Assembly: GCA_030141605.1 (NCBI GenBank)
Contig: JAQGDQ010000118.1
Coordinates: 496,001 to 560,000 of the forward strand
Source: Tubiluchus corallicola
Lineage: Eukaryota; Animalia; Priapulida
DNA: 64,000 nt
Direction of reading: 5' to 3'
Both the position numbers and the translations under genes were made by a program. The notes below the pieces were generated by a model. That model was not told the origin of the DNA. It worked only from the letters and a program-made list of their open reading frames with translations, and searched no databases. This document shows positions 7,634-46,795 of the stretch, piece after piece (positions within the stretch are counted from its first letter, which is position 1; every line of letters starts with the position of its first letter).

Positions 7634-8226
7634 TAGTTTGTTTTTAAATCATTGCTCTCAGTCCCTATAAACTATCTCAATTCTAAGCGATCAAACCTCA
7701 GGTACCTTTTATTAGACAGGAAGGTAGTGATTTATGAAGTTTACAATCTGAGAAATTTAAATTGCTAGTGCAAAGTTGTAATATAGGCCTAGAATAATAA
7801 AGCGTATATCATTACAAAGCTTTGAGTTATTGTTCATTTGCTTTTTGCTGGCACTGTTAGCTGAGGATGCACGTAAGGTAACGTACGTTTACAAAGAAAT
7901 TAAGAAATTAACAATCACCGTCTGCAACTGGAAAAGTAACATGTAGTTTGAAATAAAAGACGAATACATTTAATCTAGCTAAGTAATGTGTGCAAGAAAT
8001 TAAGAAAGTAAATGTAGTGAAAAAATGTTCGTATGTACAGTATTAAAAAAAGTTTCTTAAAATGGCATTACTAGAAAAGATGGTCTGTTTCTTATTTTAT
8101 TAGTATTTGTGTTGAAATTTCAAATTCTGTTAAGGGTGTTATTGTGAGATTGGAAGAATCACAAGCTAAGTTTGCCTAGTAAATGAAGTGCTGTGAATTT
8201 TAGGTGTTCTTGTCGATGAGAAGATA

Positions 8227-8979
8227 ATGGAAGCCGAGTCATTGATCTACTACAAGTGTACAGCCTGTTCAGAGTGTTTCATGACTGAGGAAGTGTTCTT
8301 TGCTCACACAAGAACCTGGCATTGTAAGATTTTAATCTGCGAAGGCCACGATTCATCATCTAATGACACAAGCAATCTGATCGTGAAAACCGAGCCTACT
8401 TTGGGATTTAAGTTCCACGCCGAGTATTCAGCAGATTCGGAGGCAGCAACCAGTGAGACATACGAAGAGCAATCATTAATGGATTATAATGCCATAGTCG
8501 AAGCTATACCTTTTGGTGATCGTAATAGTGATGTGAAAACAACAGATGTTGGTCAGGATGTACTTGCAGTTATTCCAGGATCAGAAAACACGTCACAACT
8601 GTGTAGCGAGTCGGCTCTCCCTGATAACTATCCTGTTAATCATCAAGCAGTGTCCGTGCACTCTACATATCAGAGATCAAGCATTTTTACTTCTATTCGA
8701 AATAAGATCAGCAGAACTAAATCAAACAACGGCAGAAGCGGCTCCTTTTCGAAACCGAAAAAAATGGCGGCAGGTTTCTCTGACAGTGATCCACACTCGC
8801 AGCGCGTAGTTGGCTTTGCTTGCAAATTTTGTAAGAGAGTTTGCCAAAATGTGTTTGTGTTAAAACGCCACGAACTAATCCATACGGGAGAACGTCCCTA
8901 TGAATGCAATATGTGCAATAAACGCTTTCAACGTAAAGATCACTTACAAGTACATCTTGCAAGACATCTTAGATATTGA
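8227..8979 (+). CDS. C2H2 zinc-finger protein ZF-1 (N-terminal atypical finger + 2 C-terminal C2H2)
   Basis: 250 aa; CTAC..HTRTWHC module, VKTEP, TGERPY linker; acceptor gctgtgaattttag ends 8203; AATAAA at 9234. Confidence 0.92.
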   Translation: MEAESLIYYKCTACSECFMTEEVFFAHTRTWHCKILICEGHDSSSNDTSNLIVKTEPTLGFKFHAEYSADSEAATSETYEEQSLMDYNAIVEAIPFGDRNSDVKTTDVGQDVLAVIPGSENTSQLCSESALPDNYPVNHQAVSVHSTYQRSSIFTSIRNKISRTKSNNGRSGSFSKPKKMAAGFSDSDPHSQRVVGFACKFCKRVCQNVFVLKRHELIHTGERPYECNMCNKRFQRKDHLQVHLARHLRY

Positions 8980-9831
8980 CTCAAGTATGGCAATAATTTA
9001 AGAAAACTTCTCATGTATACCTGCAGCCTAACATCGGTGATATTTATCTCAAACTGTTCGTGTTGATCTGTTTCGTTTTTCGTTTAATAATGTTTGCGAT
9101 TTTGGTATGCCAAAGTAAGGTCTAGCTGTGTTTCCGATTATAGATTTATGGCAGACTTTTTTTTTAATTTAAATTTTGGGAGCGTATTGATTTGCCTGTG
9201 AATTTTTGTACTTGGTTTTTGTCCAACTTCTTGAATAAAGTGCACAATTTTGCATTTGAGAAACTGTAGGTACAAAATTCGATTTAGGTGTACACAAACT
9301 GTTGTACGTAGCTATGCAGTTATCGTTGCAGTTTACTCTGTTCATTAAAATTTTTACAACAAGCCTATTGTAACAACTGGTGCAATAATTTCGATTAGAG
9401 ATATTGAATTGTAGATCTGTACAATGAATTTGTCTCTTCGAAATCTTGACTTTAAGATAAATAAAAGAACTACAGTAATATATATATATATATATATGTA
9501 TGTTCAGTTGTATGCTTGTATCTACTCATGCATGACCAGCTGAAAGATTTTCTAAGAAAATGCTAATTCATGATCTTGATATTGTACCTTACGAAGATCT
9601 CAACTGTTCACTACTGGGATTTTTTATCTCACCTTTTCAGCTGTATGTACGGTAACATTTTTCCGACTGTCTGCCCGGTTACATAGACAGTAGCGTCGAA
9701 TTTCAACTATTATTTATTCATTTTCGCACAGTCAGGCAGGCCTGTTAAGTGCCAGAGTTGTTTACTAAGTAATTATGCTGTAAATTTTAGGTTGAGAACT
9801 GAATTTTGAAGATCGCGGTGATTTAAGAGCA

Positions 9832-10590
9832 ATGGAATCCGAATCGCTTATTTACTTCAAATGTACGGCCTGCTCTGAATGCTTCATGACTGAGGAAGTG
9901 TTCTTTGCTCACACAAGAACCTGGCATTGCAAGATCTTAATCTGCGAAGGCCACGATTCATCATCTAATGACACAAGCAATCTCATCGTCAAAACCGAGC
10001 CTACTTTGGGATTTAACTTCCACGCCGAGTATTCTGCAGATTCGGAGGCAGCAACTAGTGAGACATACGAAGAGCATTCATTAATGGATTATAGTGCTGC
10101 TGTTGAAGCTATACCTTTTGCTGATCATAATAGTGATGTGAAAACAACAGATGTTAGTCAAGACGTGCTCAGAGTTATTCCAGGATCAGAAAACACATCA
10201 CAACTGCGTAGCGAGTCGACTGTCCCTGATAACTATTCAGTTAACCATCAAGCAGTGTCTGTGCACTCTACACATCACAGATCAAGCATTTTTACTTCTA
10301 TTAGAAAAAAGATCAGCAGAACTAGGCCTAAACCAAAGTACAGCAGAACTGGCTCCTTTTCAAAACCGAAAAATTTAACTACTGGTTTCTTGGATAGTGA
10401 TCCACACTCACAACGTGTAGTTGGTTTTGCTTGCAAATTTTGTAAGAAAGTTTGCCAAACTGTGACACTCCTGAAACGCCATGAACTTATTCATACTGGA
10501 GAACGCCCTTATGAATGCAACATGTGCAATAAACGTTTTCAACGCAAGGACCACTTACAAGTGCATCTTGTAAGACATCTTAGACATTGA
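9832..10590 (+). CDS. C2H2 zinc-finger protein ZF-2
   Basis: 252 aa, close paralog of ZF-1; acceptor gctgtaaattttag ends 9790; AATAAA at 10824. Confidence 0.92.
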   Translation: MESESLIYFKCTACSECFMTEEVFFAHTRTWHCKILICEGHDSSSNDTSNLIVKTEPTLGFNFHAEYSADSEAATSETYEEHSLMDYSAAVEAIPFADHNSDVKTTDVSQDVLRVIPGSENTSQLRSESTVPDNYSVNHQAVSVHSTHHRSSIFTSIRKKISRTRPKPKYSRTGSFSKPKNLTTGFLDSDPHSQRVVGFACKFCKKVCQTVTLLKRHELIHTGERPYECNMCNKRFQRKDHLQVHLVRHLRH

Positions 10591-11335
10591 CTCGAATGTG
10601 GCAACAATTTAATAAAAATCACTTTATGTATGATACAGTTTAATATCAATGATATTTAACCCAAAATATTCTTGTTACTGTTTCAGTTGCTGATGATGGC
10701 ATTCTTGTCATTTTTGTTACATACGCCGAATTAGGTTTTAGTTGTACAGCAGACATGTTTTTTTAATTTAAGTTTTCTGTACCGGTATTACGATTTTCTT
10801 TTAAACTTTCAAACGACTTCTTGAATAAAGCGTATAGTACAATTTGCTTCTAAAAAATTGTACACAATAATTCTGTTTGATTGTATGCGATGTTCTGTAT
10901 ACGGCTACTTAAAAGATATTTTGTTATTTTTGGTATTAAGTGTTTTACCTGATAATTTTTGTGACAAGAACATTGTGTTAAGTAAGAAATGCAAGTTTTT
11001 TTATGAAATTGTCTATATGTAATGTGTGTACCCTAAATGTGTTGATCTGTGCATGTGAGGCCTCACAATTTAGGATGACTAGCTAAAAAGATTTTGTATG
11101 AAAAATGCTAATTAGTGATTTTAATTCTATCTGATGAAGATCACATCTTTCAGCTGTAGGTAGAGTAGCATTTTAATCTGCCTGCACCCTGTGTAACTTC
11201 TCTATTAGGCTTAAAATTTGATTCATTATTTCTCTTTTTAGGCGTGTCTATAACGCCTACATTTTTTAGTAAAATTTTATGCTATAAATTTTAGGTTGAG
11301 AACCAAACTTTGAGGAACCTACTCATCTCAGAACA

Positions 11336-12211
11336 ATGGAAGCTGAGTCACTTATTTACTACAAATGTACAGCTTGTTGTGAATGCTTCATGGCTGAGGA
11401 GGTGTTCTTTGCTCACACCAGGACCTGGCACTGTAAGATACTTGTGAGTGAAGGTCACGGCTCGGAAGATGAAGCCCCTGATCCTAGTAGCTGCATTGTG
11501 AAAACTGAACCTACTTCTGAACTTGATTTTTACGTTAGGCCTGTAAATCTTACGGGATCAGATGGACCAAATGACCAGTATAAAGAACAGTCAATAATCC
11601 CATTTGACACAGTTGTGGAAACAAGGTCGTACGACGGTAGTGATGATATAAAAATACTAGATGATGTTTGTCATGATGTGCCACATCCTACACATGGATT
11701 TATGGACCTAGAAAGGGCAGACAGAAAGTTGGTTATACATGCAAGGCAAGGATTTTCCTGGATAGATAATTTGCAGGTGGACAACAGAAGGTTTTGCAGT
11801 GAAACTATTGCAGAGAATAGGGTCAGGAACAATGCAGACAGTGAAATAATCATTAGAAGTAAGAGTTGTTCAGTGACTAATCAAGGAGTTTTGATACCCA
11901 CACCAAGGAAAACAGCCGTAAAAAGTAACACTACATGTAGCAAGTCAAGGAGCAGCAAATGTGGCTCTTTTCCAAAACTGAAGAGCAATCTTATTGGAAG
12001 TGCTAGTAGTGATCCGCAACTACAGCGTGTAACTGGTTTTGCTTGCAAATTTTGTCAAAAGGTTTGCCCAAATGTGTCTAAGCTGCAGCGTCATGAAAGA
12101 ATTCATACAGGAGAAAGGCCTTGGGAATGCAGCATTTGTAGCAAACGTTTCCAGCGATCAGACCACCTAAAACAACACTTAACATGCCACAGCACACAAC
12201 CTGTTGTATGA
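11336..12211 (+). CDS. C2H2 zinc-finger protein ZF-3
   Basis: 291 aa, same architecture; acceptor gctataaattttag ends 11294. Confidence 0.92.
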   Translation: MEAESLIYYKCTACCECFMAEEVFFAHTRTWHCKILVSEGHGSEDEAPDPSSCIVKTEPTSELDFYVRPVNLTGSDGPNDQYKEQSIIPFDTVVETRSYDGSDDIKILDDVCHDVPHPTHGFMDLERADRKLVIHARQGFSWIDNLQVDNRRFCSETIAENRVRNNADSEIIIRSKSCSVTNQGVLIPTPRKTAVKSNTTCSKSRSSKCGSFPKLKSNLIGSASSDPQLQRVTGFACKFCQKVCPNVSKLQRHERIHTGERPWECSICSKRFQRSDHLKQHLTCHSTQPVV

Positions 12212-12389
12212 TATGGCAGACACGCATGTTTGACTCACTTTTAATGTTTTAAAACTGACTGGAATGGCAAAGTGTTTGAACTAGATGGTAGCTACCTGCA
12301 GCATGTATGCGCAACTTTCCTTACACTTGTCTAAGTCTATAAATCATGTGTACTACTGATAGTGTTTAAGTTTCTTTTATGCCTTATAT

Positions 12390-12809
12390 CAGGGGTGTGC
12401 AAAGTGCGGCGCGCAGCCGAGAGATCTTCTGCGGCCCGCGAAGACGTTTGTCAACGTAATGAAAATACGGCACACGCAATCCAGCTGAAGTCTGCGCCAA
12501 TATCGCAAAGATAGTGCGGGTAGTTTTTTCCTCTAGATCGGATGGCATTAACCCTTACAAGACCGTTGTCACTTAATGTCACTGTCGGACATGACAAAAT
12601 ATATGGTTTTTAATATAAATTTTGATAACTTCTAAAATAGTTTCTTCAGTGTAGTAGTGCAGTAGTGATGATGTGCGCAAATCGGATGCAAAAAAAACTG
12701 GTTATTAGGTCCTACTGTACTTGGCTCCTTGACCAAACTGCCTGTGGCCCGCAGGAATTGCGGGGATGCTTTATGTGGCCCGGCTAGTCAGATAATTTGC
12801 ACACCCCTG
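12390..12809. mobile_element. hAT MITE family A
   Basis: 14-bp TIRs; perfect TSD ccttatat. Confidence 0.88.
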
Positions 12810-13425
12810 CCTTATATTATTATATTGTCACTGTTTTTAAGCACTGGGTATAGCAGTCTGCTGTCTTCTTGGTTAACACATGTATTTTGTTATTTGAAAC
12901 CTCAAATAATTTAATACGCCAAGTGCAGTTTACTGATTTTAAGCTAGTATAGAAAATTTTGTATTTACGTAAATTATCTGTAAATCGTGATAACTGATAC
13001 TTTTTCTGGTGCAGAAATATTGCAATTATTAACTCAAAGTATGGAATTTGTTCAGTTTTGTTTTATATCTAGTACATATGTATAGCGGTTTTAGTATCGT
13101 TACATTTTTTAGCATCTTTTCGGTGTTTGTTAGACATTAGTACACGTTATTAATTAACATTCCAGTAAAGAATGTTGTAATACTGGTTACAAAACATTTA
13201 ATTTACTTTTTGCTTGTATTGTAAACTAAGGCATTTTTGTGACAAATATATTTTTATGTAGATATGCCTCTTTACCTGAGACATATGTTGTTTGTTGTAA
13301 AACATTACAAAGTATGTAAAAATAAATAAAAAAGCATTTGCGATGGGAAGTGTTGTCAGCAAATCTATGGCTCTGGCACTATTGGGGAGCGGGGAACATT
13401 CTTTTAGCATAACATCAGCAGCATC

Positions 13426-13835
13426 TGTTGTGGAGATCGCTGACGTGGAGTAGAATTGCATAGAACATCGCAGAATGTTCCGTCGGAATGATCGCCTTAG
13501 CGTCTGGATTGTTCTCGAACATTTGTTGGAGAAGTTTCTGCAATGCGCTATATAAGGCGAAGCAGGCTGCCGACACGGGATCGCACATCGCACGCAGATC
13601 TAACACGGACTTATACTTACTCTTTTATAATTATTTAAACATTTTCCAGATTTTCACGTTTAGTATAATCTTTTATAATTATTTAAACATTTTCCAGATT
13701 TTCACGTTTAGTATAATCATTTCAAAGTTCCTTCATACTTGTGTTGTAAGAATTCTCGCTCAATAAAGTAATAACATTTAACGGCGTGTTGTCTAGTTTT
13801 CTCTACGAGCCTTCCGAGAGAAACAAAACACAAAA
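13426..13835 (+). mobile_element. Solo LTR family B
   Basis: tgttgtgg...cacaaaa, 5-bp TSD gcatc; internal ~49-bp tandem duplication at ~13621-13718. Confidence 0.8.
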
Positions 13836-14914
13836 GCATCGAAATTTATAGCACCTCATTACCAGTAAACTTAGCACTCATGACTTATTATTTTAATTTT
13901 TAATTGTGAATTTAGTTCATGAACTTGATGACTTGATATCAAAGTGCAGTTAAACTTGCTGATACCACCAACTTTGACACTACTGCAAAAAAGTTGGCAT
14001 TAAGTGAGTTTGGCATTATAAAGAAGAGAATTGACACAATTGCATGTCTATGCAAATATAGACATTTTGTTTTGCCAAAAATATGGGCGTTTAGTAAGGT
14101 TGGCGTTATAAAGAGGTGCTTTATATCGAGGTTATGTGTTTTGCAATGTGAAATTAAAACTGTTGCCTGTTGTGTAAAATTGCCTGAAATTAACGTGTGA
14201 AACACAACGTAGTTAGACGTAAATGGACTATATATGACATAAGGGTTGTTTATTAGAGGCGTTAGACTGTGAGCCGTTTTGCCTCATGGTTTCTGTCAAT
14301 TTGGCATGTTTTCTAAAATTATGAATTCATTTCATGGTTTTGGTATAATCAGTTGAGATGACGTATTCAGTAGAACTTACACGGTACCAATTCATTGGAA
14401 AACTGAGCGGTGTTAGACCAGGTATCAGCAGGACATGTTAGGTACCGTCATAGCCATGTTTTAAGAGTTTGCACTTATTTTTGCAGATTTTGGTTCTTGC
14501 TCGTATATGAATATAAATATATATGTATATGAATTATATGAGTATATGAATTCTAGTATTCGCGTGATAGGCATTCTGTTGCGATGTACAGTGTATAGTG
14601 CACTACACATTTACAAGTACATTTGCATAATCCTTTTTGTATCTAGATGTAGCCTTTTCTTCATTACTGTTATTTGGATGAATAATGAATGATATAAAGT
14701 TTAGAATTCTCTAAATAAACGCATTTTAGCCACAGCATAGCTACAGCAAATTGACAATGACAATTATAATATCAAAACCCAAAGGAATTCGTTAGCTTGC
14801 AAATGTAAGCCAAACAGAAGCTCAAAACTTCATCGTGTGATTTGCTTGTAAACGATATGCTGTAAATTTTAGGTTGAACGACTGTTGAGAGAAGAGTGCA
14901 ACTAACTGAAAATA

Positions 14915-15685
14915 ATGGAAACATATTCACTGATCTACTACAAGTGTACAGCATGCTCTGAATGTTTTATGGCAGAGGAAACGTTTTTTGCTCACACGAG
15001 AACTTGGCATTGCAAGATACTAATTAGTGAAGGTCACGACCCAGTACCAAGTGATAGTGATGTAAGTGGTTTTTACGTCAAAACCGAACCTTCGTTTCAG
15101 TTTGATTCGCATGTTGAACCTGAGTGTTCAAAAGATTTGGAAATGGAACCTGTATTTGGAAGAACCGGTAACGAGCAGTTGGAATTTGATGCTCCATTTG
15201 ATGGAAGTAGCGTTAACGTGAAAAAAGTGGATGTAGTTAAAGATGGACCTGATGTTGCTTCACAGCTAGGCACACCATTTATGACCGTACTTGATGAAGG
15301 CCGGGATAGACTGTGCTTAGTAAAGCAGGGCTATTCTGTGACTAAGAAACTTGAAGAAGAGCCTTTTTTTGCAAATCAAAGGCAAAATATGATTGCTGGT
15401 GTGAAGCTGAAGACCAACAGAGCTCTATGGAGGAACACTAGAACAAGTACTCTTTCAAAGCAAAAGAATTTAAGTGTTGACCACTCAACCCGTGAACCGC
15501 AATTGAAACGCATAACTGGTTTTGCTTGTGCATTCTGTAAAAAGGTATTCACATCAGTATCGCTTCTGACACGCCATGAAAGAATTCATACCGGCGAGCG
15601 TCCGTATGAGTGTAGCATATGTCACATGCGTTTTAAACGAACAGATCATGTACAAGGACATATGAGACGCCATTTTAGAGAATAG
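14915..15685 (+). CDS. C2H2 zinc-finger protein ZF-4
   Basis: 256 aa, same architecture; acceptor gctgtaaattttag ends 14872; in-frame TAA in the leader. Confidence 0.92.
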   Translation: METYSLIYYKCTACSECFMAEETFFAHTRTWHCKILISEGHDPVPSDSDVSGFYVKTEPSFQFDSHVEPECSKDLEMEPVFGRTGNEQLEFDAPFDGSSVNVKKVDVVKDGPDVASQLGTPFMTVLDEGRDRLCLVKQGYSVTKKLEEEPFFANQRQNMIAGVKLKTNRALWRNTRTSTLSKQKNLSVDHSTREPQLKRITGFACAFCKKVFTSVSLLTRHERIHTGERPYECSICHMRFKRTDHVQGHMRRHFRE

Positions 15686-15888
15686 AAATCTGCCCAACCT
15701 ACTTAAAAAAGTATATTGTTTTTATTAGAGTTGAATTTTAAAATGCTGAGTTAATGACATTCATTAGTATTGAACTCATCCGCATCATATTGAGTTTGAA
15801 AAGGCACTGAAAATTACTATGCAGCACAAATTCTTCCAGTTTAAATCCAACCTCGCAAAATAATTCTGTACAATAAAAACTTTAATGT

Positions 15889-16261
15889 ACAGCCAAACCC
15901 TCTTTTCAGAACAATGTCTACATTTGCAGACATTAATGCGCCCGATTGTAATGCCAAACTCAGTTAACACCAAAGTTTTTTGGAGTCGCAAAGTAGGTGG
16001 TATAAAGAGGTTGACCTCTTTTCAGAACAATGTCTACATTTGCAGACATTAGTGCGCCTGATTGTAATGCCAAACTCGCTTACACCAAAGTTTTTTGCAG
16101 TCCTAAAGTAGGTGGTATAAAGAGGTTGACCTCTTTTCAGGACAAAATGTCTACATTTGCATAGATATTTAGGTATTAACACACCTCATTATAATGCCAA
16201 ACTTGCCTAATGCCAATTTTTTTTGTAGCCCCAATGTAGGTGGTATAAAGAGGTTTGATTG
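15889..16261. mobile_element. Old Tc1/pogo-like MITE containing ~116-bp internal tandem units (x3)
   Basis: cagccaaaccctctt ... aagaggtttgattg ends; units start ~15900, 16016, 16131; inverted diverged homolog at ~13950-14130. Confidence 0.5.
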
Positions 16262-16469
16262 CTTACGTATTTTTGTGATCTATTTATTTCAATGCACAGC
16301 TTCCAAATTCTGTTCAGTGAATAACCCACCTGAAGATTTCTTTGTTTGGCCTTAGATTTGACACAATTTTACTCCATTTTATGTAGGAATCTAGTTTAGG
16401 CAGTTTTATATTTAAAAATTTGCTATAACAATGTATTGCTTTCTGAGTTCATACTGTGTAATAATCAGA

Positions 16470-18246: not shown

Positions 18247-19107
18247 CTAAGTGTCAAAACAGTCCCGAGTATCTTGCTGCTCGTGTTTAGTTTTGTGATG
18301 GCTGAGTTGCCACCCGTGTTGGAAATTCTTCAAGCAGATATCACAGACAAAAGGTCTTTCTCCTGTATGAATTCTCTCATGGCGTTTCACGTGGGCAGGA
18401 CTTGGACAAACCTTCTTGCACCATCTGCAAGCATAACCACTAACACGTTCAATGTTTCCTCTAACACTTTCACTTTCAGTGTTTCGCATGGCAGTGTTTC
18501 CTCTGCCACGTGCAATACTTGTTTTTTGTATAGACTTTCGCTTAAATTTTTCTGATAGAGGTGTGCAATTATTAAATTCTGGTTTTGGAAATATGCAAGT
18601 GTTAGTTACAGAGGAAGACGTTTTGTTGCCGTGTGCACCCGGGGTTACCATATGGCACTCTCTGTTTGCTCGTAAAGAGTGTTGAAAACTGTTACTGTCA
18701 GAAACCAAATTGCTTGGATGAAATTGCAAAAGCGGCTGAACAATAGGCAGTAAATCTGTTACGCCTTGCAGAAAATTGTTGCTAAATTCCATAATTTCAA
18801 TGTCACTATTGTCGCTTTCGTTTTTTACAGCCATACGTTGTCTCTCCTCATTGACATGTTGTAAAACAGAGTACGCTTCAGAGTTTTCCTCCGAAAGTTT
18901 GGCTTCTGCGGAGCTCGGGTCTGCAGGGCTATCGGTCCCGGGCACTTCGATTTTCACAGTTGTTTGGTTGCTGATCTCCATGACCTGCCCTTCACTGACC
19001 AATATCTTACAGTGCCATGTTCTACTGTGAGCAAAAAACATATCTTCGGCGATGAAACATTCGGAACAAGCCGTGCATTTGAAGTAAATGAGAGATTCTG
19101 ATTCCAT
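18247..19107 (-). CDS. C2H2 zinc-finger protein ZF-5
   Basis: ATG at 19107 (MESESLIYFKCTAC...); two C2H2 with TGERPF linker; acceptor ttggtttcag, exon starts 19153; in-frame TGA in the leader. Confidence 0.92.
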   Translation of the reverse strand: MESESLIYFKCTACSECFIAEDMFFAHSRTWHCKILVSEGQVMEISNQTTVKIEVPGTDSPADPSSAEAKLSEENSEAYSVLQHVNEERQRMAVKNESDNSDIEIMEFSNNFLQGVTDLLPIVQPLLQFHPSNLVSDSNSFQHSLRANRECHMVTPGAHGNKTSSSVTNTCIFPKPEFNNCTPLSEKFKRKSIQKTSIARGRGNTAMRNTESESVRGNIERVSGYACRWCKKVCPSPAHVKRHERIHTGERPFVCDICLKNFQHGWQLSHHKTKHEQQDTRDCFDT

Positions 19108-19284
19108 TCTTTGTCTGGGTATTAACTTTTTCAAGCTTCAGTTTTGTACAACCCTGAAACCAACGGAGAACAAAACGTGAAACATGTCCTTTCAATCACA
19201 ACACACAAACCTACTTGATGATTGCCTATAAATGTAAGCCAACAAATTTCACGACTTGGGTAAGTAATAATTGTCACTTTAAAC

Positions 19285-22304: not shown

Positions 22305-23748
22305 TTTTCTGTTTTGTGCTGATGGTTTAAGCTCCTGGCTAAAATCCTGTAACCTAATGGAGAAACAAGCCTTAAAGTCTACAGTATATAGTATATATAT
22401 ATATATGTATAACGTTAATATTTTATAGTTTTCTGAAATATAATGTACAACACAATGATAGGAAAAAAATTCTAATTTGTCAATAATGACGGCACGTTTG
22501 ACGACATTTAAGAGTCACAAACCAAACTTTAAAATTTAAAAATGCACCCATACTGCTACTAGTTAAATAACCAGCTACGAATGCTTCAAATGCAGCTATC
22601 AACATTGCATATCGTGCAAGCAACTGAGGCTAATGGAAGCTGTAAACGATTTGCAGAACGAACAGAATCCGCAAGCAAAAGCGAATAAAGCTGCAAATCA
22701 TGCACGTGCTTGCCTCTATATTAATACCTGGACAGTTCTCACACTACTACAAGTCTTCACACTGTGCAAAGTAAAGTGACGAGTTGACAAACAATTTGAA
22801 CATCTACAATTAGTAATATATAATATAGTCTATTAGTGTATACAGGTTGGTCATTGCTCAAAAGGACAAGTAAACACTCTTCATAAATAAAAATTCATCT
22901 CAAAATTTTGCGTCACTTACTTGGTGTCTTACTGCATACAGAGCTTGTCAGCTATGGGCTTTGTCACACTTTAAAAAAATTGATGCACAAGCAGTTAGGG
23001 GGTCTGGGGGAGCGCTGTAAGCTCCACTAACAGGTTCCGGGGCAGAGCCCCGGGCCACCAACGCATTTTCCTGTATTTAAGCACATTTTGGAGGCCCCAA
23101 ATGAGATCTAAATTCTGGTACATAGACTTCTTCAAACGTGCTAAAATTCTGTTTTAATAACATTTAGTTAGGTAATATTCATTGTATTCTATTGTAGTAG
23201 TCATATATCAAGATTATCTACCCAGCAAAATGTGGAAATGTGGATAGTCAAGCATAAAACTGATCACACAGCTCAGCCACTGTTCATACAAAAGTTGGCG
23301 TGCGTGCTAATTTTTTCCACCGGACACAGCTAAACGTCACGGCCACACATGCATTTTACTGCATTTCAGACCATTTTGTGGTTGCTAGAAGCTATTTCCT
23401 CAGGCAAGTTCACTAGCCTAAAATTCATTACACAAACTCATTGTGCAAACAAACAAGGGTTGGTGTGTTTCTTGGTTTGCTGCTAAAAAATTTTACTACT
23501 CATAAAAAAATTTAATTCAAAAAATTCTGTGGATGCATGTGCATCCGTGACGTTAGCAGTAATATTGCATAAAACTTTTAAATTTAAACTCCTGCAATGA
23601 CCGTTAGGTGCAACCATCTTAATGGTAAATCGTTTGAAATATTTTGAAACAAGTTTTGATAACATTGCATATTGTTTGAAAAAATAAATATCTAGAGTAT
23701 TCATAGCACACTATTTAGTAACTAAGCAAAAATTTAAATTACTGTGTA

Positions 23749-24139
23749 CAGGCAACCCTCGTTAAACCGGACTAATTGGGGGGTGGGTGTTCCGGTTTAG
23801 CCGATTGTCCGATTTATCCGATACGCCTATATATGGTCCATATTATACAGAAATAATCACCTTAATACGGCCTATATACATTGCACTATATACAATGCTG
23901 TATATTACTTTAAAATAGTTAATCTGTGAAGATAAAAAAATTAGCGAGTGCTTTCGATGGGGTAAGCAAACTGAATTTTGGCGGGAATAGTAAGGCGGTA
24001 CCGCGAGCCGCTTCGGCCCGTCAGTGGGTCGTCGTGAGTTGGTAGGCCGTGTTGTGTTTAGCGCTCCGGCTCGGTCGGAAATCGGTTAGTCTTATCCGAT
24101 ATCCGGGCTAAAAGGGTCTGGTTTAATGAGGGTCGACTG
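23749..24139. mobile_element. pogo/Tigger-like MITE family D
   Basis: TA|caggcaaccctcgttaaaccgga ... ggtttaatgagggtcgactg|TA; second copy at 30083. Confidence 0.82.
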
Positions 24140-26047
24140 TATTATCAATAGGATCATTAATGTATTATTTTGGTGAACCAGTTTGCACACTGGAACGGTG
24201 ATACAATGATATTTTCTCAAACAAGTGAGCATAATGCTAAGCAAAATAACCTGGGGCATATCAAGAAATTATGACGCCCTAGGCCAAAGTTGACAGTTCA
24301 GTCCCACCACAACAAACAAACAAAAAAACAAATCTTGTGGTGTATTAGTAGCACCACCGTTACATTATATGTAGTTATTGTTATTGACATATATTTGCAT
24401 AGCAATTATATCTGAGAAGGCTTGCGGTCTCTCAGGTCTCTTTCAGGCAATAATTGTGGCGTTTACATAAAAACCGACTGAATATAGACACAGACAAACT
24501 TAGGCAAAATTTTAATTATCATTACATAGATGTTAGGCTGCATAGGCCTAAATGTGTGTTAAGTAGCTAATTAATCAGTGATTACTTTTTAACTGGCGTT
24601 AATAATAGTGCATTTATCCAACTCAGAATCCGATTAAAAGCTAATTTCACAAAATCCAAGTGTTTTAAAATTAACTCGCAACTCTTGTCATAGACTCACA
24701 GTGAAATATTCAAGGAAGCACTGGAAATCTTCTGAATTCGACAAAATTTCGGGAGTTTTGGCTTTTGCTAGTGCCTGGCAGAATGCGCGCACAGTGTTAA
24801 CAGTTTAACAACGTGCTATCTCAGATTGACTCGTGATCTAAAAACTCCAAAAGTTTTATGATTTTTGCCATATTATACGTACTTGTAGCAATCTTAGAAG
24901 TTTTAGTCGATGTCATAAAGAAAACAGGATATAATGGCATGTGGATAAAGTTTTGCTAAAGCCTAAAACTTCTTGTTGTTTCTGCCAAAACTAAGCAGTG
25001 CATATAAATTGACTCACTGGCTAGGCATTGTTAGAAATTGAAATATGTTAATGTCGCAACATAAAACCTGGGCCGATTTAATTATTGATAAACTGAGTCA
25101 AATGATTCACTCACGGCAAATGTGTTAAAGATTCCAATGATTATTATGTTGTGTGCTGTATGTTATCAAATGAACGGTGTTGGTTTACAATCTACTGATG
25201 ATGCTAACTGCAAAATTATTGTAAATAGCAACTTTAACAGCACAAGTTTTTAGCTAAATTTGGAAGCATTTTGGCACAATTTACTTAAATGTAGGATATC
25301 TCTGTTCAACATGTATTGCTGCGGGTTTGTATGAAAATACATGTAATAGTGCATTTATTTATAATAACGTGCAGACAAAGAAAATTTTAATAACGTCAAA
25401 GAAGCCTGCACACAAGGTCATAGGCTAGATGTTTCAGTGTACAAAACAAAACTTTCGTAAACAAAAGTCCAAAAAAGAAGTTATTATGTCGCTTAATATA
25501 ATGTAAATTTAAACTGAAAGAAAATTGTTTTGAAAATTATCTTTGTCATAAATATATATATCTTTTGATCTTAACTGTCAAAAGTTAGATAGAGGTGCAT
25601 CTTCTAGAACATATTCGTGTGTCACCATGTAATAATCATTTTTATCGTGTTATTGTCGTGACTTATTGACTGTATGACGCGATTGTCGGGACGTACACAT
25701 ATTACTGAATAATGCATGCTTTCATTACAGGTTAGTGTGGCGTGAAAGAAATCGGCAAAATGTGGAAATTCTGTAATAGCCGGACTACTGCAGTACCAAC
25801 ATAAAATCGTCACTATAATTGCAGTCAGTGCATTGACTGTAGTTATACATGCAGTGCAGACATTACCAACAGTGTTAATGATCAACTTAGAGGTGTTGCA
25901 TTAAAAGGACACTGTGAACTCGTGTAGCATGCACAGTATTTTGAAGATCACAATCGCTGAGCTTTATATCCAGTATTGATGGTGTGTGGACCCTTGCAAA
26001 CTATTGGCCAAAATTTCATAAACAAGAAAGATTCACGTGCAAGAAGC

Positions 26048-26866
26048 ATGAACACACGTGTAACAGAAACTTTAGTGGATGTTTCAACATGGCAACATTT
26101 AATAAAAACAATTTTGGGTGCACAATACATGAAACATTCTGATGGTATTATTTTTAATGTCCTTAGCATTTCTTGTGGGCTGAAACCATCATTTTTATTT
26201 GATTATGGTGAACCTGAAGCAGCGCAGTTGAACTTGTTTGTGCATAAACTATATGAGCATAAAGCAACTCTCATATCATTACAAATCCTTGTGGCAGGTC
26301 AGAATTTGTTCATTGCAAATTTACAGAAATTATGTTTATATCTTGAGAAAATTCAAAAGACAGAGGCACACAGTGAGCCCATACTAATAAATGTTTCAGA
26401 ATGTCTCGATCGTCCAAGCTTGGCTGGAAGTGATATCGTTAAGAATACTATTTCGAGCATGACATCAATTTATGATGAAATAAAAGCTGCTCACACTCAG
26501 AATAAGGCAGAAGAACTTCATTTAAAACCATCCCCTAACGTGAATATGTCAACTTTATATGGTCTCCTACTTGGTTTTCCATTTGTTTACTGGTATGACC
26601 AGAATTCGAATTCGAACTGTTTGTCCTTCATACCGCTCTGTGTGTATGAACTACAAGCAAAATTGGACGTTGGACATGTTCGTGGAAGGTTGCCTCTCCA
26701 ATACTGCTTTAGCTCATTCAGTGTACCAGCGGAATTGGAAGATCAGGGCAAAGAAAGCATAAACCAATGGGAAAATGATGCACGAACTGCACTAACATGT
26801 CAATCTTTATTCAGTGATATTATCATAACAAAAACTGTTAAAGTGCTACCACAAGTGGTCTTGTGA
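26048..26866 (+). CDS. C1orf74: UPF0739 / DUF4504 protein, C1orf74 homolog (single exon)
   Basis: Motifs GLKPSFLFDY, NMSTLYGLLLGFPFVYW, FSSFSVP recalled from the C1orf74 family; alternative ATG at 25979. Confidence 0.8.
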   Translation: MNTRVTETLVDVSTWQHLIKTILGAQYMKHSDGIIFNVLSISCGLKPSFLFDYGEPEAAQLNLFVHKLYEHKATLISLQILVAGQNLFIANLQKLCLYLEKIQKTEAHSEPILINVSECLDRPSLAGSDIVKNTISSMTSIYDEIKAAHTQNKAEELHLKPSPNVNMSTLYGLLLGFPFVYWYDQNSNSNCLSFIPLCVYELQAKLDVGHVRGRLPLQYCFSSFSVPAELEDQGKESINQWENDARTALTCQSLFSDIIITKTVKVLPQVVL

Positions 26867-27204
26867 GGTTCTGGTATCAGTACGCTTAATGCATGATTAG
26901 ATGTGTTAAGGAAATGATTTAAAATTTATAAAGAATCGCTAATATTATTTTCATGAATTGTGGTATGATTTTCGTAAAATTCCTTTGCAAAGGATCAGTT
27001 TACATGCTTCTTTCTTGTCAACAGATATTAGCAGTACATGCTAATGCTAGTAGCATTTGCAGCATCTCTGCTCTCACTTGCTAACAATTACTGTACCTCT
27101 GATGTCCAAAACAATTACCACAAACCACATTGTATCGTGACTGTATCTTTTATGTTTGTCTTTACATTAATAATATCAATGTTGTTCCATTAATTTGGAT
27201 AATG

Positions 27205-27736
27205 GTTGGCATCCTTATGCCTCGGAAGACAATGGAGTGTGCGCCAAGAGAGTCAGTTATTGATCACATTGATGGAGCTGCAGCGTCGACTGTGGCTGAG
27301 CAGTCCGATCCTTGAACGTCTCCAGGGCGCACACCTGGGCAAGGTGTATGGAGATCCTGAGTTGCCCAGACAACAAGAACCCCCTCCCTTCCTTGCTGGT
27401 GTAGTCCAAAGGAAAGCGGAGCAATAAGGTTAGCTGTAGGAGCTGCCGGAGTCAGTGAGCATGCTGCACTGGTCCACCTTCAGGGCTCCACTCCTGATTT
27501 GGAATGTTTACTCCTGTACACATGGCCGTTGGGTCACTTGACCTCCTCCGCCCTCTAGCCGATGGCTGCTTGTGCAGCTCCTCCGCCTAGTGTCGAGATG
27601 CAGTGTAGGCATCCCGCAAGCCTACAACACCTCTTATTCCTAGGAGGTCACCCATCCAAGTACTAACCAGGCTCTACGTTGCTTAACTTCGGTGATCAGA
27701 CCAGAACCAGTGTTTTCAACGTGATTTGGTCGTAGT
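27205..27736 (-). mobile_element. 5S rRNA-derived SINE (SINE3), 3' tail not evident
   Basis: 5S-like head ~27618-27736 (-), followed by a GC-rich body shared with the 46 kb copy. Confidence 0.8.
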
Positions 27737-28024
27737 CATAATTTGAATAATAGTAATAACTTAATGGTAGGATACATTCTCTACACATATACCAGGTATT
27801 AATAATTCTAGAGTTTTATAGCTGTCCAGACTTCAGATTGAAATTGGTTGTACGTAAGAGAAAGGTAATTGAACTTACAACAATATACAAAGCAATGCTC
27901 ATTTATTACAAACTTGCTCAGTCTTGAAGAAGTACCTTATCTACTTTAAATGGATTAGGCATTAAACAGCTGCCAAAGTAGAATATCCGAAAAATGCTGC
28001 TACTGAATAATGACAGTATTCATG

Positions 28025-28396
28025 TGTTGCGTTTTGTTTCTCTCGGAAGGCTCAGAAGAGAAAACCAGAAAACACTTTGTCAAATTAAACTAGTTTATTA
28101 AGCGAGAATTCTACAACACAAAAGTATGAAGGAACGCGAAATATTTACACTAAACGTGTAAATCTAGAAAATGTTTAAGTGTATCTGAAAATGCAAGTAT
28201 ACAAGAGAATGTGTAAGTGTTGCGTCCGTGTGAATCTGCGTGTCTCGCTCAGCGGCCTGCTTCGCCTTATATAGGGTGCCGGGGAACATTCCAGATGTTT
28301 CTTTCCAGAACATTCTACAAGATAAGACGATTATTCTAACGGAACATTCTACAATGTTCTATGTAATTCTAATAGATGCCAGCGATCTCCACAACA
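28025..28396 (-). mobile_element. Solo LTR family B
   Basis: Reverse-oriented copy, perfect 5-bp TSD tcatg. Confidence 0.8.
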
Positions 28397-28525
28397 TCAT
28401 GCTTGTCAAAAATTGTAACAAACATGCTCCTGTTGGTCTATTGCATCGAAGTTCATTAATAGTTCGCATTGTATTGTTACTATTTATCGTACATTCTATA
28501 CATAAAATATATCGCTTTAAAATAT

Positions 28526-28885
28526 TGTTGTGGAGATCGCTGGCGTCTATTAGAATTACATGGAACATTGTAGAATGTTCCGTTGGAATGATCGTCTTAC
28601 CGTGTGGAATGTTCTAAAAAAAACTTCTGGAAGCTTCTTGGGCACGCTATATAAGGCGATGCAGGCCGCTGAGACAGGAGCACACGGACGACACTTACAC
28701 ATTGTCTTGTATACTTGTATTTTCAGATACACTGAAACGTTTTCCAGATTTTCACGTTTAGTGTAAACATTTCGTGTTCCTTCATACTTTTGTGTTGTAG
28801 AATTCTTGCTTAATAACCTAGTTTAATTTGACGAAGCATTTTCTGGTTTTGTCTACAAGTCTTCCGAGAGAAACAAAACACAACA
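28526..28885 (+). mobile_element. Solo LTR family B
   Basis: tgttgtgg...cacaaca; TSD aatat/aatac. Confidence 0.8.
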
Positions 28886-30082
28886 AATACATATACATAA
28901 AATATATAAAGTATATTGCTTTAATACAGAAATTTATTTATTTTATTGCTCTGAAACTGAAAGGTTTAAATTACATTAATGAATCACATGAAACGAAATC
29001 AAATTTTTTTTATTGTAAAATAATTATTTTGTTTCTCATGCAAATAATGCCTAGAAAATTGCAATGATATTTTCCTAAAGTTTTGTGATTTTTTTGTTGA
29101 TCAAAATTTTTGCAGCAATCACAGGAAAATGTCAATGAAAAAACACAATGCCGTATCTAAGTGCACAATGTGACAAATTGCAGGGGTGTCGCGGGAGAAT
29201 CTCCGAGAATGGAGCTCAGATAGACTTAAATGAGACATGTTGATTACTTTTTGCTGGACAAGCTTAGTAAATAAAAAGGCCTGTCTATACCTGTAACAAA
29301 AAGACATTGGTGTTTTACAAAAATATTTACAAATGAAAAGATGCCATTATGGAACTTAACTATATTCCAGTTCAAGTGGTTTACCTCAATAAGCCTTTTC
29401 ACAGTTCCAGCGATTGATGATGCTCGTGAAATGTCAAATGTTAAATGTACGAGACAATGCATTTGTGTACATTTGACAACGCCTTGCTACCCATGCTATT
29501 GTAATAGTAATAGCATTAACAGCTAGCTAGAACCTTACGTAGTCCATTAAATCTTGTTCCCAAGCAAGATCCTGCTAGTAAATCACTCTAAGCACAGACT
29601 TATGCATAACTAAGTAAAGTCCACATAAAACAACTGAACTGAGTGGCAGACTACTTTCTTTACCCACACGTCACGTGACGGTTGTAGTTAAGACGCATTG
29701 TTGTGGTACACTTAATCTTTGACCTACAGTACACCATGAAACTGTTATAAACACCTGGAACATTTATATGAAACTGCAATAAATATTAACAGAATAATAA
29801 CAGTACATACATATAGAAAAAAATAAGCCGACAAAACAAGGAGATGCCAATACGCTTTAGATGTTTCAAATAGTGACTACAAGTGTTATGTAAAGCATGT
29901 GCAATATTATCAACCTCTTTTACTGGCACTTAGAAAGCAGCAGATTATCTGGAACTTCAAATAAGCTCATATTAGAACTTAAAAGATCTAATAACTAGGC
30001 TCTTTTGAATATGTAGCCATATAGGGTCTAAATATTTTTGCAAAGCCAACCGTGAATGCATGTATGAATTGTGATGTTAATA

Positions 30083-30450
30083 CAGTCGACCCTCGTTAAA
30101 CCGGACCCCGTTAGCCCGGATATCGGATAAGACGGATGTCATCCGTGGTAAAGGAAACTGACCGATTTCCGACCGAATCGGAGCGCTAAACACAACACGG
30201 TCTACCACCTCACCACGATATACGTATACTGTACTTTTTTATTATTTAAACTGTACAATAATTTCTTTATCCTCACAGGTTAACTATTTTAAAATAATAT
30301 ACAGTATAGTATATAGTGCAATGTATATAGGCCTTATTAAGGTGATTATTCCTGTATAATATAGACCATATATAGGCATATCGGATAAATCGGACAATCG
30401 GCTAAACCGGACCCCCCCCCCAATTAGTCCGGTTTAACGAGGGTTGACTG
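30083..30450. mobile_element. pogo/Tigger-like MITE family D
   Basis: TA|cagtcgaccctcgttaaaccgga ... tccggtttaacgagggttgactg|TA. Confidence 0.85.
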
Positions 30451-30507
30451 TATATTCAACATAAACCCAAACAAAACTGATGAAAATAGGTTTGGGTGCT
30501 TTATGTA

Positions 30508-31013
30508 CAGGGTGCATAAGATTATGGATATGTATAAAATAAATAAAATAGCTTATTTTATGGATTTTTGAAATTTTATTTTATGGATATCAATAAAATA
30601 AGAAGTAGACTATATCTGGAATGAGATGCCCAGGGGGAAATCAATTAAAAAGTAAAAACAGGAGTGCTTGAAATGTGTTTTTAAACACGCAGGACTTAGT
30701 TTTAATTTTATCGGTTTAGTTTTAATTTATCGGTTTCATACCACTTCAAGTTTAATCAAATTTTACGAGACAATGCCTTGTAATTCATCACTTCAGTTCA
30801 AATAATTCATCTATTTGGTACGAATGTAGAATGCCCTCTAGGCTGAAGTTTCCGATCCAATGCCTGTATTCAGTTTTGATTGCCTTATTTTGTACAAAAA
30901 ATACAAAAAAATGTTTTTTTATGTTATGCATTTCTTATTTTATGGATGTTTCAAATTTTATTTTATGGATTTTTGGTCTTATTTTATGGATATCCATAAT
31001 CTTATGCAGCCTG
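30508..31013. mobile_element. hAT-type MITE family F, just 3' of ZF-7
   Basis: TIRs cagggtgcataagattatggata / tatccataatcttatgcagcctg; TSD tttatgta/tttatgca; near-identical copy at 51008. Confidence 0.85.
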
Positions 31014-31069
31014 TTTATGCATGACACTTGAACATAATATAAGAAGTGCATTAAAACAAAATCCTTTTA

Positions 31070-32020
31070 TCAAGAGGAATGGAATCTGTTGTTGTGCATT
31101 TTTAACTGCCATCCGTAGCGAAAAGGTTTAGGACAAATTTCGCACAAATACGGTTTTTCGTCGGTGTGTATTCTTTCATGACGTCTGACACGATACATCG
31201 TAGGATAAACCTTGTCACACCACTTACAAGCAAAACCTGTCACAACACGCCTGGAAGAGTCATCGTTGCCGCCAGAGACAGCTGGGGATGCTCTTTGCAT
31301 AGCACTAGAAGAAAAAGGCTTACCAAATGATTTTACGCTTGCTCCTCTTCTGGACATGGTGTATCCAAATGGCCCACGATGTCCGGCTGACATTTTTTGT
31401 GATATACTTGAGGACGCTACATTAGCATGTTTTAATCTTTGCGAATCGGCAACGAGCCTAGGTCGTCCTCTTTTAGCCGACTGACGTACAATGTTACTAT
31501 TAAATTCTGCGTGGCTATTGCCACCTCCAAACCTCGGAATTGGAGCTTGCAACATGCAGTTTGTAAAAGGGTCATCGGAAGCGAAAACAGGAAAGCTATT
31601 GTCCGGTACGAGTTCAGCAGATGGTTCGCCAGCACGGGATACCGTATCACCGGTCAAGTTTTCAATAATGATTTCCAAATCACTGTCCTCAGCAGACGGA
31701 ATTGTCGGTTCTGTTTTAACCACGACTGACTCTTGTTGGTCAGACTCAGCACTCGGTACACAACCATTATTTACACTTGCTTCGTCATCACAGGTAGATG
31801 GTTCGTCTACATGAGCTCTAAACACACTGGAAGTGAGTTCGCTCTTTATGGGGATACTTGCAATCTCCGAATCGATGTCAGTATTAAAATTTGGATTATG
31901 CCCTTCGCTAATCAGTATTTGACAGTGCCAGGTGCGCGTGTGGGCAAGGAATACTTCTTCCGCCATAAAACACTGGCAGCATGCTGTGCACTTGAAGTAG
32001 ATTAAAATGTCTGATTCCAT
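31070..32020 (-). CDS. C2H2 zinc-finger protein ZF-7
   Basis: 316 aa, same architecture, KRGRPR AT-hook/NLS-like motif; acceptor attatttatag, exon starts 32046. Confidence 0.92.
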   Translation of the reverse strand: MESDILIYFKCTACCQCFMAEEVFLAHTRTWHCQILISEGHNPNFNTDIDSEIASIPIKSELTSSVFRAHVDEPSTCDDEASVNNGCVPSAESDQQESVVVKTEPTIPSAEDSDLEIIIENLTGDTVSRAGEPSAELVPDNSFPVFASDDPFTNCMLQAPIPRFGGGNSHAEFNSNIVRQSAKRGRPRLVADSQRLKHANVASSSISQKMSAGHRGPFGYTMSRRGASVKSFGKPFSSSAMQRASPAVSGGNDDSSRRVVTGFACKWCDKVYPTMYRVRRHERIHTDEKPYLCEICPKPFRYGWQLKMHNNRFHSS

Positions 32021-32082
32021 AGTATTTGTAAGACAAGCGATGAAACCTATAAATAATGCAATAAATGTTCTAAAGTCAACAA

Positions 32083-46083: not shown

Positions 46084-46795
<712 letters not shown>

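What the first reader, a model, noticed from the sequence alone, without database searches (positions are those of the whole stretch)
8190..32060. Two-stranded array of whole-ORF zinc-finger cassettes, each entered through a splice acceptor (alternative last exons or trans-splicing)
Seen: all seven ORFs are intronless, with strong Kozak starts (purine at -3). Each has an AG|G acceptor 23-49 nt before the ATG: exon starts 8204, 9791, 11295, 14873 on +; 19153, 22353, 32046 on -. The four + acceptors share gct(g/a)t(a/g)aattttag. Leader phases differ and four leaders contain in-frame stops, so the exon spliced on must be non-coding. Only ~550 and ~465 nt separate the ZF-1 and ZF-2 AATAAA from the next acceptor, with no strong donor between. 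Known precedents: Drosophila lola and mod(mdg4) choose among many zinc-finger terminal exons, mod(mdg4) on both strands by trans-splicing; SL trans-spliced operons also show bare acceptors before the ATG. Inference: one or a few promoters may feed a bank of complete transcription-factor ORFs, selected by splicing/polyadenylation or SL resolution, with the common domain carried inside each cassette.
Basis: partly seen in the sequence, partly recalled or inferred. Interest (0 to 1): 0.85.

Follow-up and report, generated by a model that had tools for sequence, protein, structure and literature searches.

The report
Whole-gene zinc-finger cassettes, likely shared leader
Seven intact single-exon zinc-finger coding sequences and one decayed copy sit in two facing rows in what is likely a priapulid worm, each behind a predicted splice acceptor, and at least the tightly packed row is likely read from one shared non-coding leader, so that one promoter would choose among complete transcription factors predicted to pair with each other.

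Summary
The anatomy is real: seven intact intronless C2H2 ORFs (four +, three -, facing each other), plus a missed decayed eighth copy (4881-6064). The four + acceptors score weakly, but their last 14 intron bases are 11-14/14 identical in all six pairs, five of them near synonymous saturation; the three - acceptors are strong. The shared N-terminal finger defines an unnamed family whose 12 named members (of 30 looked up) are all Priapulus caudatus, and it is predicted to homodimerise. Best outside evidence: RefSeq lists three Priapulus relatives with no shared coding sequence as isoforms X1-X4 of one series, which implies a shared non-coding exon. Against: 7 of the 12 are stand-alone genes, that locus is not shown to be orthologous, the two short spacers are one duplication and hold a conserved block that could be a private promoter, and no RNA of this species was available. 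Nothing supports cross-strand or spliced-leader trans-splicing. Verdict: cis-spliced shared leader on the + row about 0.5, ordinary separate genes about 0.38. The scan noted a similar two-cassette case in another genome (e1-9873792), not this family.

The parts
1667..4151 (+). Region with candidate shared non-coding leader exons for the + row (donors after 1708, 1995, 3198, 4151; ATG-free exon-like 1667-1708 and 4093-4151). Candidates only.
   Evidence: best pair matched by 71 of 200 simulations, second best by 16 of 200, so not above chance
4881..6064 (+). Decayed eighth cassette: N-terminal finger remnant without ATG, eroded acceptor, frameshifted C-terminal fingers
   Evidence: tblastn E 7e-15 (4881-5009) and E 5e-4 (5922-6064); flank alignment
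5055..5431 (+). Solo LTR with a 5-bp target-site duplication, inserted in the decayed cassette
8189..8226 (+). ZF1 conserved acceptor motif and 23-nt leader (exon start 8204; short upstream ATG overlapping the start)
8227..8979 (+). ZF1 ORF, 250 aa: N-terminal atypical finger, disordered linker, two C2H2 fingers
9234..9239 (+). ZF1 poly(A) signal candidate, inside a 15/15 block shared with ZF2's at 10824
9532..9661 (+). Conserved spacer block before ZF2 (counterpart 11075-11174 before ZF3): private promoter or mini-exon, or splicing element
   Evidence: 60 of 75 columns, reached by 4 of 2000 shuffles; the 27-nt part alone by 379 of 2000
9776..9831 (+). ZF2 acceptor motif and 41-nt leader (exon start 9791; in-frame TGA); ZF3-like flank
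9832..10590 (+). ZF2 ORF, 252 aa, 86% identical to ZF1
11280..11335 (+). ZF3 acceptor motif and 41-nt leader (exon start 11295; in-frame TGA)
11336..12211 (+). ZF3 ORF, 291 aa
14858..14914 (+). ZF4 acceptor motif and 42-nt leader (exon start 14873; in-frame TAA)
14915..15685 (+). ZF4 ORF, 256 aa
18247..19153 (-). ZF5: strong acceptor (exon start 19153), 46-nt leader with stop, ORF 19107-18247, 286 aa
21423..22353 (-). ZF6: strong acceptor (exon start 22353), 49-nt leader, ORF 22304-21423, 293 aa; 82% identical relative P0006
25979..26866 (+). Intronless DUF4504 gene on the opposite strand between ZF7 and ZF6 (the two close homologs start at the second Met, 26048); it would be nested if ZF5-7 share a leader
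31070..32046 (-). ZF7: acceptor (exon start 32046), 26-nt leader, ORF 32020-31070, 316 aa; 74% identical relative P0008
33124..35250 (-). Candidate leader exons and promoter for ZF7 (donors at 33124, 34135, 34487, 35189; CpG-richer 34800-35250). Candidates only.

Best explanation
Seven intact single-exon zinc-finger ORFs lie in two facing tandem rows, and the + row (ZF1-4) is likely one transcription unit in which a shared non-coding leader is cis-spliced to one of several complete-ORF last exons, each with its own predicted poly(A) site. Shown: intact ORFs under purifying selection, a conserved acceptor-like motif before each + ORF, and mixed phases and stops that rule out a shared coding exon. 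Inferred: a promoter upstream of 4881 starts a long pre-mRNA; the leader's donor pairs with one weak, conserved acceptor; cleavage behind that cassette fixes the choice; weak acceptors let proximal cassettes be skipped. The - row would have its own leader(s) and may well be separate genes. Each product carries an N-terminal finger predicted to dimerise and its own pair of DNA-binding fingers, so co-expressed products would form homo- and heterodimers, a job BTB does in lola. New cassettes arise by duplicating acceptor plus ORF: ZF2 has a ZF1-like body behind a ZF3-like flank.
For: The three proteins are 29-34% identical and share at most 7-9 consecutive residues, so a one-gene annotation implies a shared non-coding exon (inference; RefSeq's grouping rule is recalled, transcripts not seen). 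Three unnamed relatives, two grouping one-to-one or closely with that series (tree support 97/98 and 96/98), share a contig length of 7155 nt, 4122 nt of it coding: a compact array in a second lineage. A second series, XP_014670583-595, interleaves a different body (X3) among X2-X8. In the window: the acceptor is the only non-repeat flank element shared by ZF1, ZF2/3 and ZF4 in 2.5-kb flanks; best donor in the ZF1-ZF2 spacer is 1.0 bit; the + spacers have 3-7 CpG per 300 nt (window median 6) against 20-23 in hand-picked patches upstream of the GPCR and Ank-Mab21 genes. Dimer model: score 0.41, best of 3 controls 0.02, runs agree in at least 90% of contacts, pLDDT at least 73; the mark was reached by 21 of 30 solved pairs and 0 of 23 single chains (eukaryotes 17 of 29, animals 7 of 16).
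Against: No spliced read or cDNA links any two cassettes. 7 of the 12 named relatives are annotated as stand-alone genes, two of them apparent neighbours (XP_014674169, XP_014674171). The window's cassettes do not group with the Priapulus series (their own group is weak, 82/67), so that series is a family precedent, not an ortholog. The second series looks like chimeric models of near-identical copies. A 75-column block is conserved in both short spacers, with weak aligned donors 135-140 nt before the acceptors: a possible private promoter and first exon. ZF2-ZF3 has a 4.0-bit donor; ZF6 and ZF5 have their own candidate donors at 22921 and 19215; DUF4504 interrupts the - row. The window's single GPCR and Ank-Mab21 genes are also intronless ORFs behind strong acceptors, so an acceptor before the ATG is ordinary here. 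Only 1 of 7 eukaryotic pairs with no older solved relative passed the dimer mark, zinc was not in its calibration, and the single-chain model has residues 32-38 as helix while the dimer model puts them in the interface.
Confidence: 0.5

Rival explanations
1. An ordinary tandem cluster of separate zinc-finger genes, each with its own compact promoter, short non-coding first exon and one 5'UTR intron; the acceptors look alike by common descent.
For: An intronless ORF behind an acceptor is the layout of the unrelated GPCR and Ank-Mab21 genes of the window. The conserved spacer block (4 of 2000 shuffles) and aligned weak donors at 9646-9651 and 11155-11159 fit a small private first exon. 15% of model donors score 1.0 bit or less. 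ZF5, ZF6 and ZF7 have 1.3-7 kb of non-repeat upstream DNA with candidate donors. 7 of 12 named relatives are stand-alone genes.
Against: Does not explain the Priapulus isoform series with unrelated full-length coding sequences. No promoter or first-exon element was found shared among ZF1, ZF2/3 and ZF4 although the acceptor is (a 9-nt donor would be below this search's reach). The short spacers are CpG-poor.
Confidence: 0.38
2. A spliced-leader operon: one long transcript per strand is cut into single mRNAs by adding a leader RNA made elsewhere at each acceptor.
For: Acceptors lie close to the ATG in 7 of 7 cassettes, and there is no good donor in the ZF1-ZF2 spacer.
Against: Two paper searches listed no paper about spliced leaders in priapulids (listings; one paper's passages read). 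Spacers are 465 nt to several kb and hold transposons, against 3 bases at the chaetognath operon junction (PMC2481426, passages). Rfam found only two 5S-like copies and one chance miRNA hit in the window (an SL gene need not be nearby). The RefSeq isoform grouping points to a genomic shared exon.
Confidence: 0.07
3. mod(mdg4)-type trans-splicing: one leader transcript is joined to cassettes on both strands.
For: Cassettes lie on both strands within 28 kb, and lola and mod(mdg4) isoforms are made by trans-splicing (PMC11426971, passages).
Against: Each row has its own same-strand upstream DNA with donor candidates. The + acceptor motif is absent from the - row (5-8 of 14 matches). Trans-splicing would still need a promoter for each acceptor transcript, and a non-coding leader would add nothing to the protein. 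An old inversion followed by local duplication explains the layout (ZF1+ZF2 99/98, ZF5+ZF6 100/91).
Confidence: 0.03
4. The AG sites are not used: each ORF is an unspliced single-exon gene and the conserved 17-mer is a core-promoter element.
For: The + sites score weakly as acceptors; ZF3's copy contains TATAAA.
Against: The other three copies read TGTAAA or TGTGAA. Conservation ends at TTTTAG|GT with leader lengths of 23-42 nt. The - row has strong, unrelated pyrimidine-tract acceptors at the same place.
Confidence: 0.02

Closest known systems
C. elegans cha-1/unc-17 cholinergic locus (PMC3390002 and PMC11488851, passages read)
   Same: Different complete proteins share a first non-coding exon and one promoter, and splicing chooses between them.
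   Different: Two unrelated genes there; here four or more paralogous single-exon transcription-factor ORFs in a growing and decaying tandem row. Shown there, inferred here.
Drosophila lola and mod(mdg4) (PMC11426971 and PMC10551640, passages read)
   Same: A bank of alternative last exons with different zinc fingers and separate 3' UTRs; an N-terminal oligomerisation domain on every product (predicted here).
   Different: No BTB domain and no shared coding exon: the constant domain is repeated inside every cassette. No sign of trans-splicing.
Drosophila 3' variable cassette clusters PGRP-LC, CG42235, Pip (PMC6191721, abstract and one discussion section read)
   Same: One 5' splice site choosing among tandem 3' cassettes, coupled to polyadenylation; the paper notes that simple scanning can suffice without RNA pairing.
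   Different: Those share coding exons and use docking/selector pairing; no pairing above shuffled controls was found here.
Priapulus caudatus RefSeq series XP_014668407-411 (ZNF442-, 561-, 205-like isoforms X1-X4)
   Same: Same N-terminal domain family; several complete, non-overlapping ORFs filed as isoforms of one series.
   Different: An automatic annotation, not a studied system; longer proteins with 3-5 further fingers; not shown orthologous to this array.
Ordinary tandem C2H2 zinc-finger gene clusters with an N-terminal effector domain (KRAB, SCAN, ZAD types; recalled)
   Same: Lineage-specific tandem expansion, conserved N-terminal module, diverging fingers, pseudogenes.
   Different: The module here matches no Pfam effector family, and the whole coding sequence is one exon.

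Membership tests
lola/mod(mdg4)-type locus | TTK-type BTB domain in a constant coding region | tested here: not met
   Pfam finds only C2H2 families in the seven proteins; none of the 12 window ORFs of 120 aa or more is BTB-like among the 11 scanned; short exons were not scanned
lola/mod(mdg4)-type locus | Variable exons spliced in frame to shared coding exons | tested here: not met
   Leader phases 0, 1 and 2 and in-frame stops in 4 of 7; each cassette has its own ATG and full domain set
lola/mod(mdg4)-type locus | Array of alternative last exons with different zinc fingers and own 3' ends | tested here: inconclusive
   Array, differing finger residues and poly(A) hexamers are present; alternative use from one leader is not shown
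lola/mod(mdg4)-type locus | [quoted passage not shown] | not testable with these tools
   No RNA holder listed
Shared non-coding first exon locus (cha-1/unc-17 type) | No coding sequence shared between the products | tested here: met
Shared non-coding first exon locus (cha-1/unc-17 type) | One physical 5' exon joined to two or more coding regions | not testable with these tools
   Indirect only: Priapulus isoform numbering; candidate exons not above chance
Shared non-coding first exon locus (cha-1/unc-17 type) | Downstream coding regions lack a promoter and donor of their own | tested here: inconclusive
   ZF1-ZF2 best donor 1.0 bit, but a conserved block and a 4.0-bit donor lie before ZF3; donors before ZF5 and ZF6
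SL-resolved operon | Non-genomic leader on the mRNA 5' end; SL RNA in the species | not testable with these tools
   No RNA and no whole genome; no SL family in the window
SL-resolved operon | Very short distance from poly(A) site to next acceptor | tested here: not met
   465-551 nt at best, 1.5 kb or more elsewhere; 3 nt in the chaetognath example (PMC2481426)
Docking-site/selector 3' cassette cluster (PGRP-LC type) | One upstream docking sequence complementary to selectors before each cassette | tested here: not met
   Duplex hits at -15 kcal or better, real vs shuffled: 229/242, 449/450, 376/362, 281/303 (+), 469/472, 302/281, 174/185 (-); only 300 nt per cassette against about 8 kb upstream
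Classical C2H2 DNA-binding transcription factor | Tandem C2H2 fingers with a TGEKP-type linker | tested here: met
   Two C-terminal fingers in 7 of 7; Foldseek top hits are SALL4 and ZBTB7A finger pairs; DNA binding itself not tested

The most novel reading that the evidence does not exclude
Priapulids have a 'lola turned inside out': a phylum-restricted transcription-factor family whose loci are banks of complete single-exon ORFs behind one non-coding leader. Each cassette carries its own copy of an uncatalogued dimerising zinc finger, so splice and poly(A) choice sets which factors are made, and their shared interface lets them combine as heterodimers; new factors are born without needing a promoter.
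Probability: 0.35. Interest if true: 0.75.

Novelty: new variant of a known kind. Interest (0 to 1): 0.55.

Why it matters
If true, it is a route to expanding a transcription-factor repertoire without duplicating promoters: a 1.5-kb duplication of acceptor plus ORF makes a new, already expressed factor. It would also be an independent arrival at the lola logic (many DNA-binding ends, one pairing domain) in a slow-evolving ecdysozoan. It is cheap to test, because the Priapulus RefSeq transcripts of one such locus already exist. Even if the genes are separate, the N-terminal finger marks an unnamed, apparently priapulid-restricted family of at least 57 clustered proteins that I did not find described in my searches.

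Tried and rejected
No whole genome is held. Sequencing runs: no RNA holder listed. Run X1 behaves as DNA (covers intergenic single-copy stretches; repeats at depth in the thousands) and its contigs cross the ZF2 and ZF5 acceptors unspliced; none of the 15 joints shown (of 40) lies at an acceptor; X2 gave one 176-nt contig on ZF3 that does not reach the acceptor. This says nothing on splicing. JGI metagenome scans found no relative. ESM Atlas gave only unnamed or generic finger clusters. PDB sequence search matched only the generic finger core, residues 9-30. RNA docking/selector pairing was no better than shuffles. Candidate leader exons were not above chance; several higher-scoring exon-like pairs lie antisense to ORFs or in repeats. 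The CpG patches at 5560-5620 and 7150-7600 were dropped as promoter candidates: the first lies in the decayed cassette, the second has terminal inverted repeats and high repeat depth. A shared coding exon using nearby downstream AGs was considered: it would open ZF2 and ZF3 in phase 2, like ZF1 and ZF7, but not ZF4, and ZF5 and ZF6 differ in phase (and sequence). Tree: 51 of 67 rows used; 16 dropped for a truncated N-domain, fewer than three matched fingers or widely spaced last fingers. Eleven of the 68 profile hits were set aside as generic multi-finger matches. Paper searches: (listings, plus passages of six papers). None described this family, priapulid spliced leaders, or RefSeq's rule for grouping isoforms; subscription journals are not covered and no supplements were read.


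Full report
Observation. The window holds seven intact intronless ORFs of 250-316 aa with one design: a 40-residue N-terminal C2H2-like module, a variable linker and two C-terminal C2H2 fingers. Four lie on + (8227-15685) and three on - (32020-18247); the rows face each other with 2561 nt between the stops of ZF4 and ZF5. The N-module is under strong purifying selection (pN 0.03-0.16 against pS 0.50 or more in all 21 pairs). ZF6 and ZF7 have 82% and 74% identical relatives in other data. It missed a decayed eighth cassette at 4881-6064, split by a solo LTR with a 5-bp target duplication, and an intronless DUF4504 gene on + between ZF7 and ZF6.

Are the acceptors real? With a generic matrix recalled from memory, the - sites are strong (top 0.5-3.5% of 7041 AGs) and the + sites are not (top 16-23%; as good a site occurs in 41-54% of random 60-nt windows). 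The + sites rest on conservation: the 14 bases before the AG are 11-14/14 identical in all six pairs, DNA more than 60 nt upstream is at background in ungapped comparison, and synonymous sites are near saturation in five of the six pairs. Selection on an acceptor is the simplest reading; gene conversion is not excluded. An acceptor before an intronless ORF is not special here: the GPCR (53598) and Ank-Mab21 (60618) genes have one too. The open question is where the donor is.

Spacers. ZF1-ZF2 (551 nt after the AATAAA) has no donor above 1.0 bit; ZF2-ZF3 (465 nt) has one of 4.0 bits. The two spacers are homologous (255 of 437 columns): ZF2 is a ZF1-like body behind a ZF3-like flank, so they are one event. 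They share a block of 60/75 columns (4 of 2000 shuffles), followed by aligned weak donors 135-140 nt before the acceptor. That could be a small private promoter and first exon, or a splicing element. ZF1 and ZF4 flanks lack it. The + spacers are CpG-average or poor, unlike patches upstream of the two control genes, but I picked those patches by eye. ZF5, ZF6 and ZF7 have room and candidate donors of their own. Candidate leader exons exist upstream of the decayed copy (donors 1708, 1995, 3198, 4151) but do not beat simulation (71 and 16 of 200). No docking/selector pairing was found.

Family. A profile of the N-module found 68 proteins among 1.84 billion representatives; 11 are generic multi-finger matches, leaving 57. 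Of 30 looked up, 12 carry names and all are Priapulus caudatus; the rest are unnamed Logan proteins. No Pfam effector domain matches the module.

Outside evidence on the mechanism. XP_014668407 and 408 (isoforms X1, X2), 410 (X3) and 411 (X4) carry three different product names, near-consecutive accessions and one contig length (409 was not seen). The three proteins each have their own N-module, are 29-34% identical and share at most 9 consecutive residues. Filing them as isoforms of one gene implies a shared exon outside the coding sequence. This is inference: I recall that RefSeq's pipeline groups models by shared splice sites, could not confirm it in print (listing only), and could not see the transcripts. 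Three unnamed proteins with one contig length (7155 nt) group with that series, so the compact array seems conserved in a second lineage. A second series (XP_014670583-595) is similar but may be chimeric models of near-identical copies. Against generality: 7 of the 12 named members are stand-alone genes, two apparently adjacent, and the window's cassettes do not group with the Priapulus series.

Protein. AlphaFold2 with a 46-sequence alignment gives a confident finger at residues 1-30 (block pLDDT 80-94), a disordered linker and two classical fingers that match SALL4 and ZBTB7A finger pairs. Two copies of residues 1-48 scored 0.41 against a best control of 0.02, with runs agreeing in at least 90% of contacts and pLDDT at least 73. 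The mark was reached by 21 of 30 solved pairs and 0 of 23 single chains; on eukaryotes by 17 of 29 (animals 7 of 16) but only 1 of 7 without an older solved relative. The interface (5-13, 17, 21, 24-25, 28-29, 32-39) covers the residues most conserved among the seven cassettes, so heterodimers are plausible. This supports binding and does not show it.

RNA. No RNA holder was listed; the one holder behaves as DNA. No step of the splicing model is shown in this species.

Mechanism and odds. Most likely (0.5) the + row is one unit: a non-coding leader is cis-spliced to one of four weak conserved acceptors, and polyadenylation behind the chosen ORF ends the message; the - row has its own leader(s) or is separate genes. 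Separate genes throughout: 0.38. Spliced-leader operon: 0.07. Cross-strand trans-splicing: 0.03. Unspliced genes: 0.02.

Comparison. It would work like cha-1/unc-17, which share a first non-coding exon (PMC3390002, passage read), scaled up to a paralog bank; and like lola in offering many finger ends on a pairing domain (PMC11426971, PMC10551640, passages). It is not a member of the lola/mod(mdg4) family: no BTB, no shared coding exon. It lacks the pairing signal of PGRP-LC-type clusters (PMC6191721, abstract and one section). Ten searches of the held library listed no paper on this family or on priapulid spliced leaders.

Verdict. A real, partly mis-weighted observation; a new variant of a known kind if the shared leader is confirmed, an ordinary cluster of an unnamed lineage-restricted family if not. 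Interest 0.55.

Noticed in passing
window 60621-62489 (+): Intronless 622-aa ORF joining ankyrin repeats to a Mab-21/cGAS-like nucleotidyltransferase region (Pfam Mab-21_C E 3.5e-11); earlier notes on this genome report caspase-STING fusions.
   Followed up: no
window 53901-55145 (+): Intronless Srw-type 7TM peptide-receptor-like ORF with a Thr-rich repeated N-terminus; acceptor at 53598 and a CpG-rich first-exon candidate ending at 52205.
   Followed up: partly
window 9737-10633 and 18497-19271: In run X1 the contigs on ZF2 and ZF5 have depth 40-56 against about 5-10 on neighbouring single-copy stretches. Contig depth is no copy number, but extra ZF2- and ZF5-like copies in that individual are possible.
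   Followed up: no
window 27302-27736 and 46349-46794: Two 91% identical copies of a 5S rRNA-headed element of about 440 nt (Rfam 5S at 27619-27737 and 46677-46795), likely a 5S-derived SINE.
   Followed up: no
window 5055-5431, 13426-13833, 28022-28396, 28526-28888: Four solo-LTR-like copies of one family inside the cluster, two of them back to back in opposite orientation; such elements could supply promoters.
   Followed up: partly
window 8217-8229: ZF1's leader has an upstream ATG opening a three-codon frame whose stop overlaps the main ATG (and sequence).
   Followed up: no
window 9641, 9732-9736, 11154-11160, 11242: Stronger acceptor-like AGs at homologous places 94-191 nt before the ZF2 and ZF3 ATGs; using them would put an upstream ATG in the leader.
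   Followed up: partly
window 49790-50266 (-): 158-aa ORF without a Pfam match; by recall it looks like the end of a LINE reverse-transcriptase frame.
   Followed up: no
proteins P0039, P0040, P0053: Some family members appear to carry two or more N-module-like fingers near the N-terminus.
   Followed up: no
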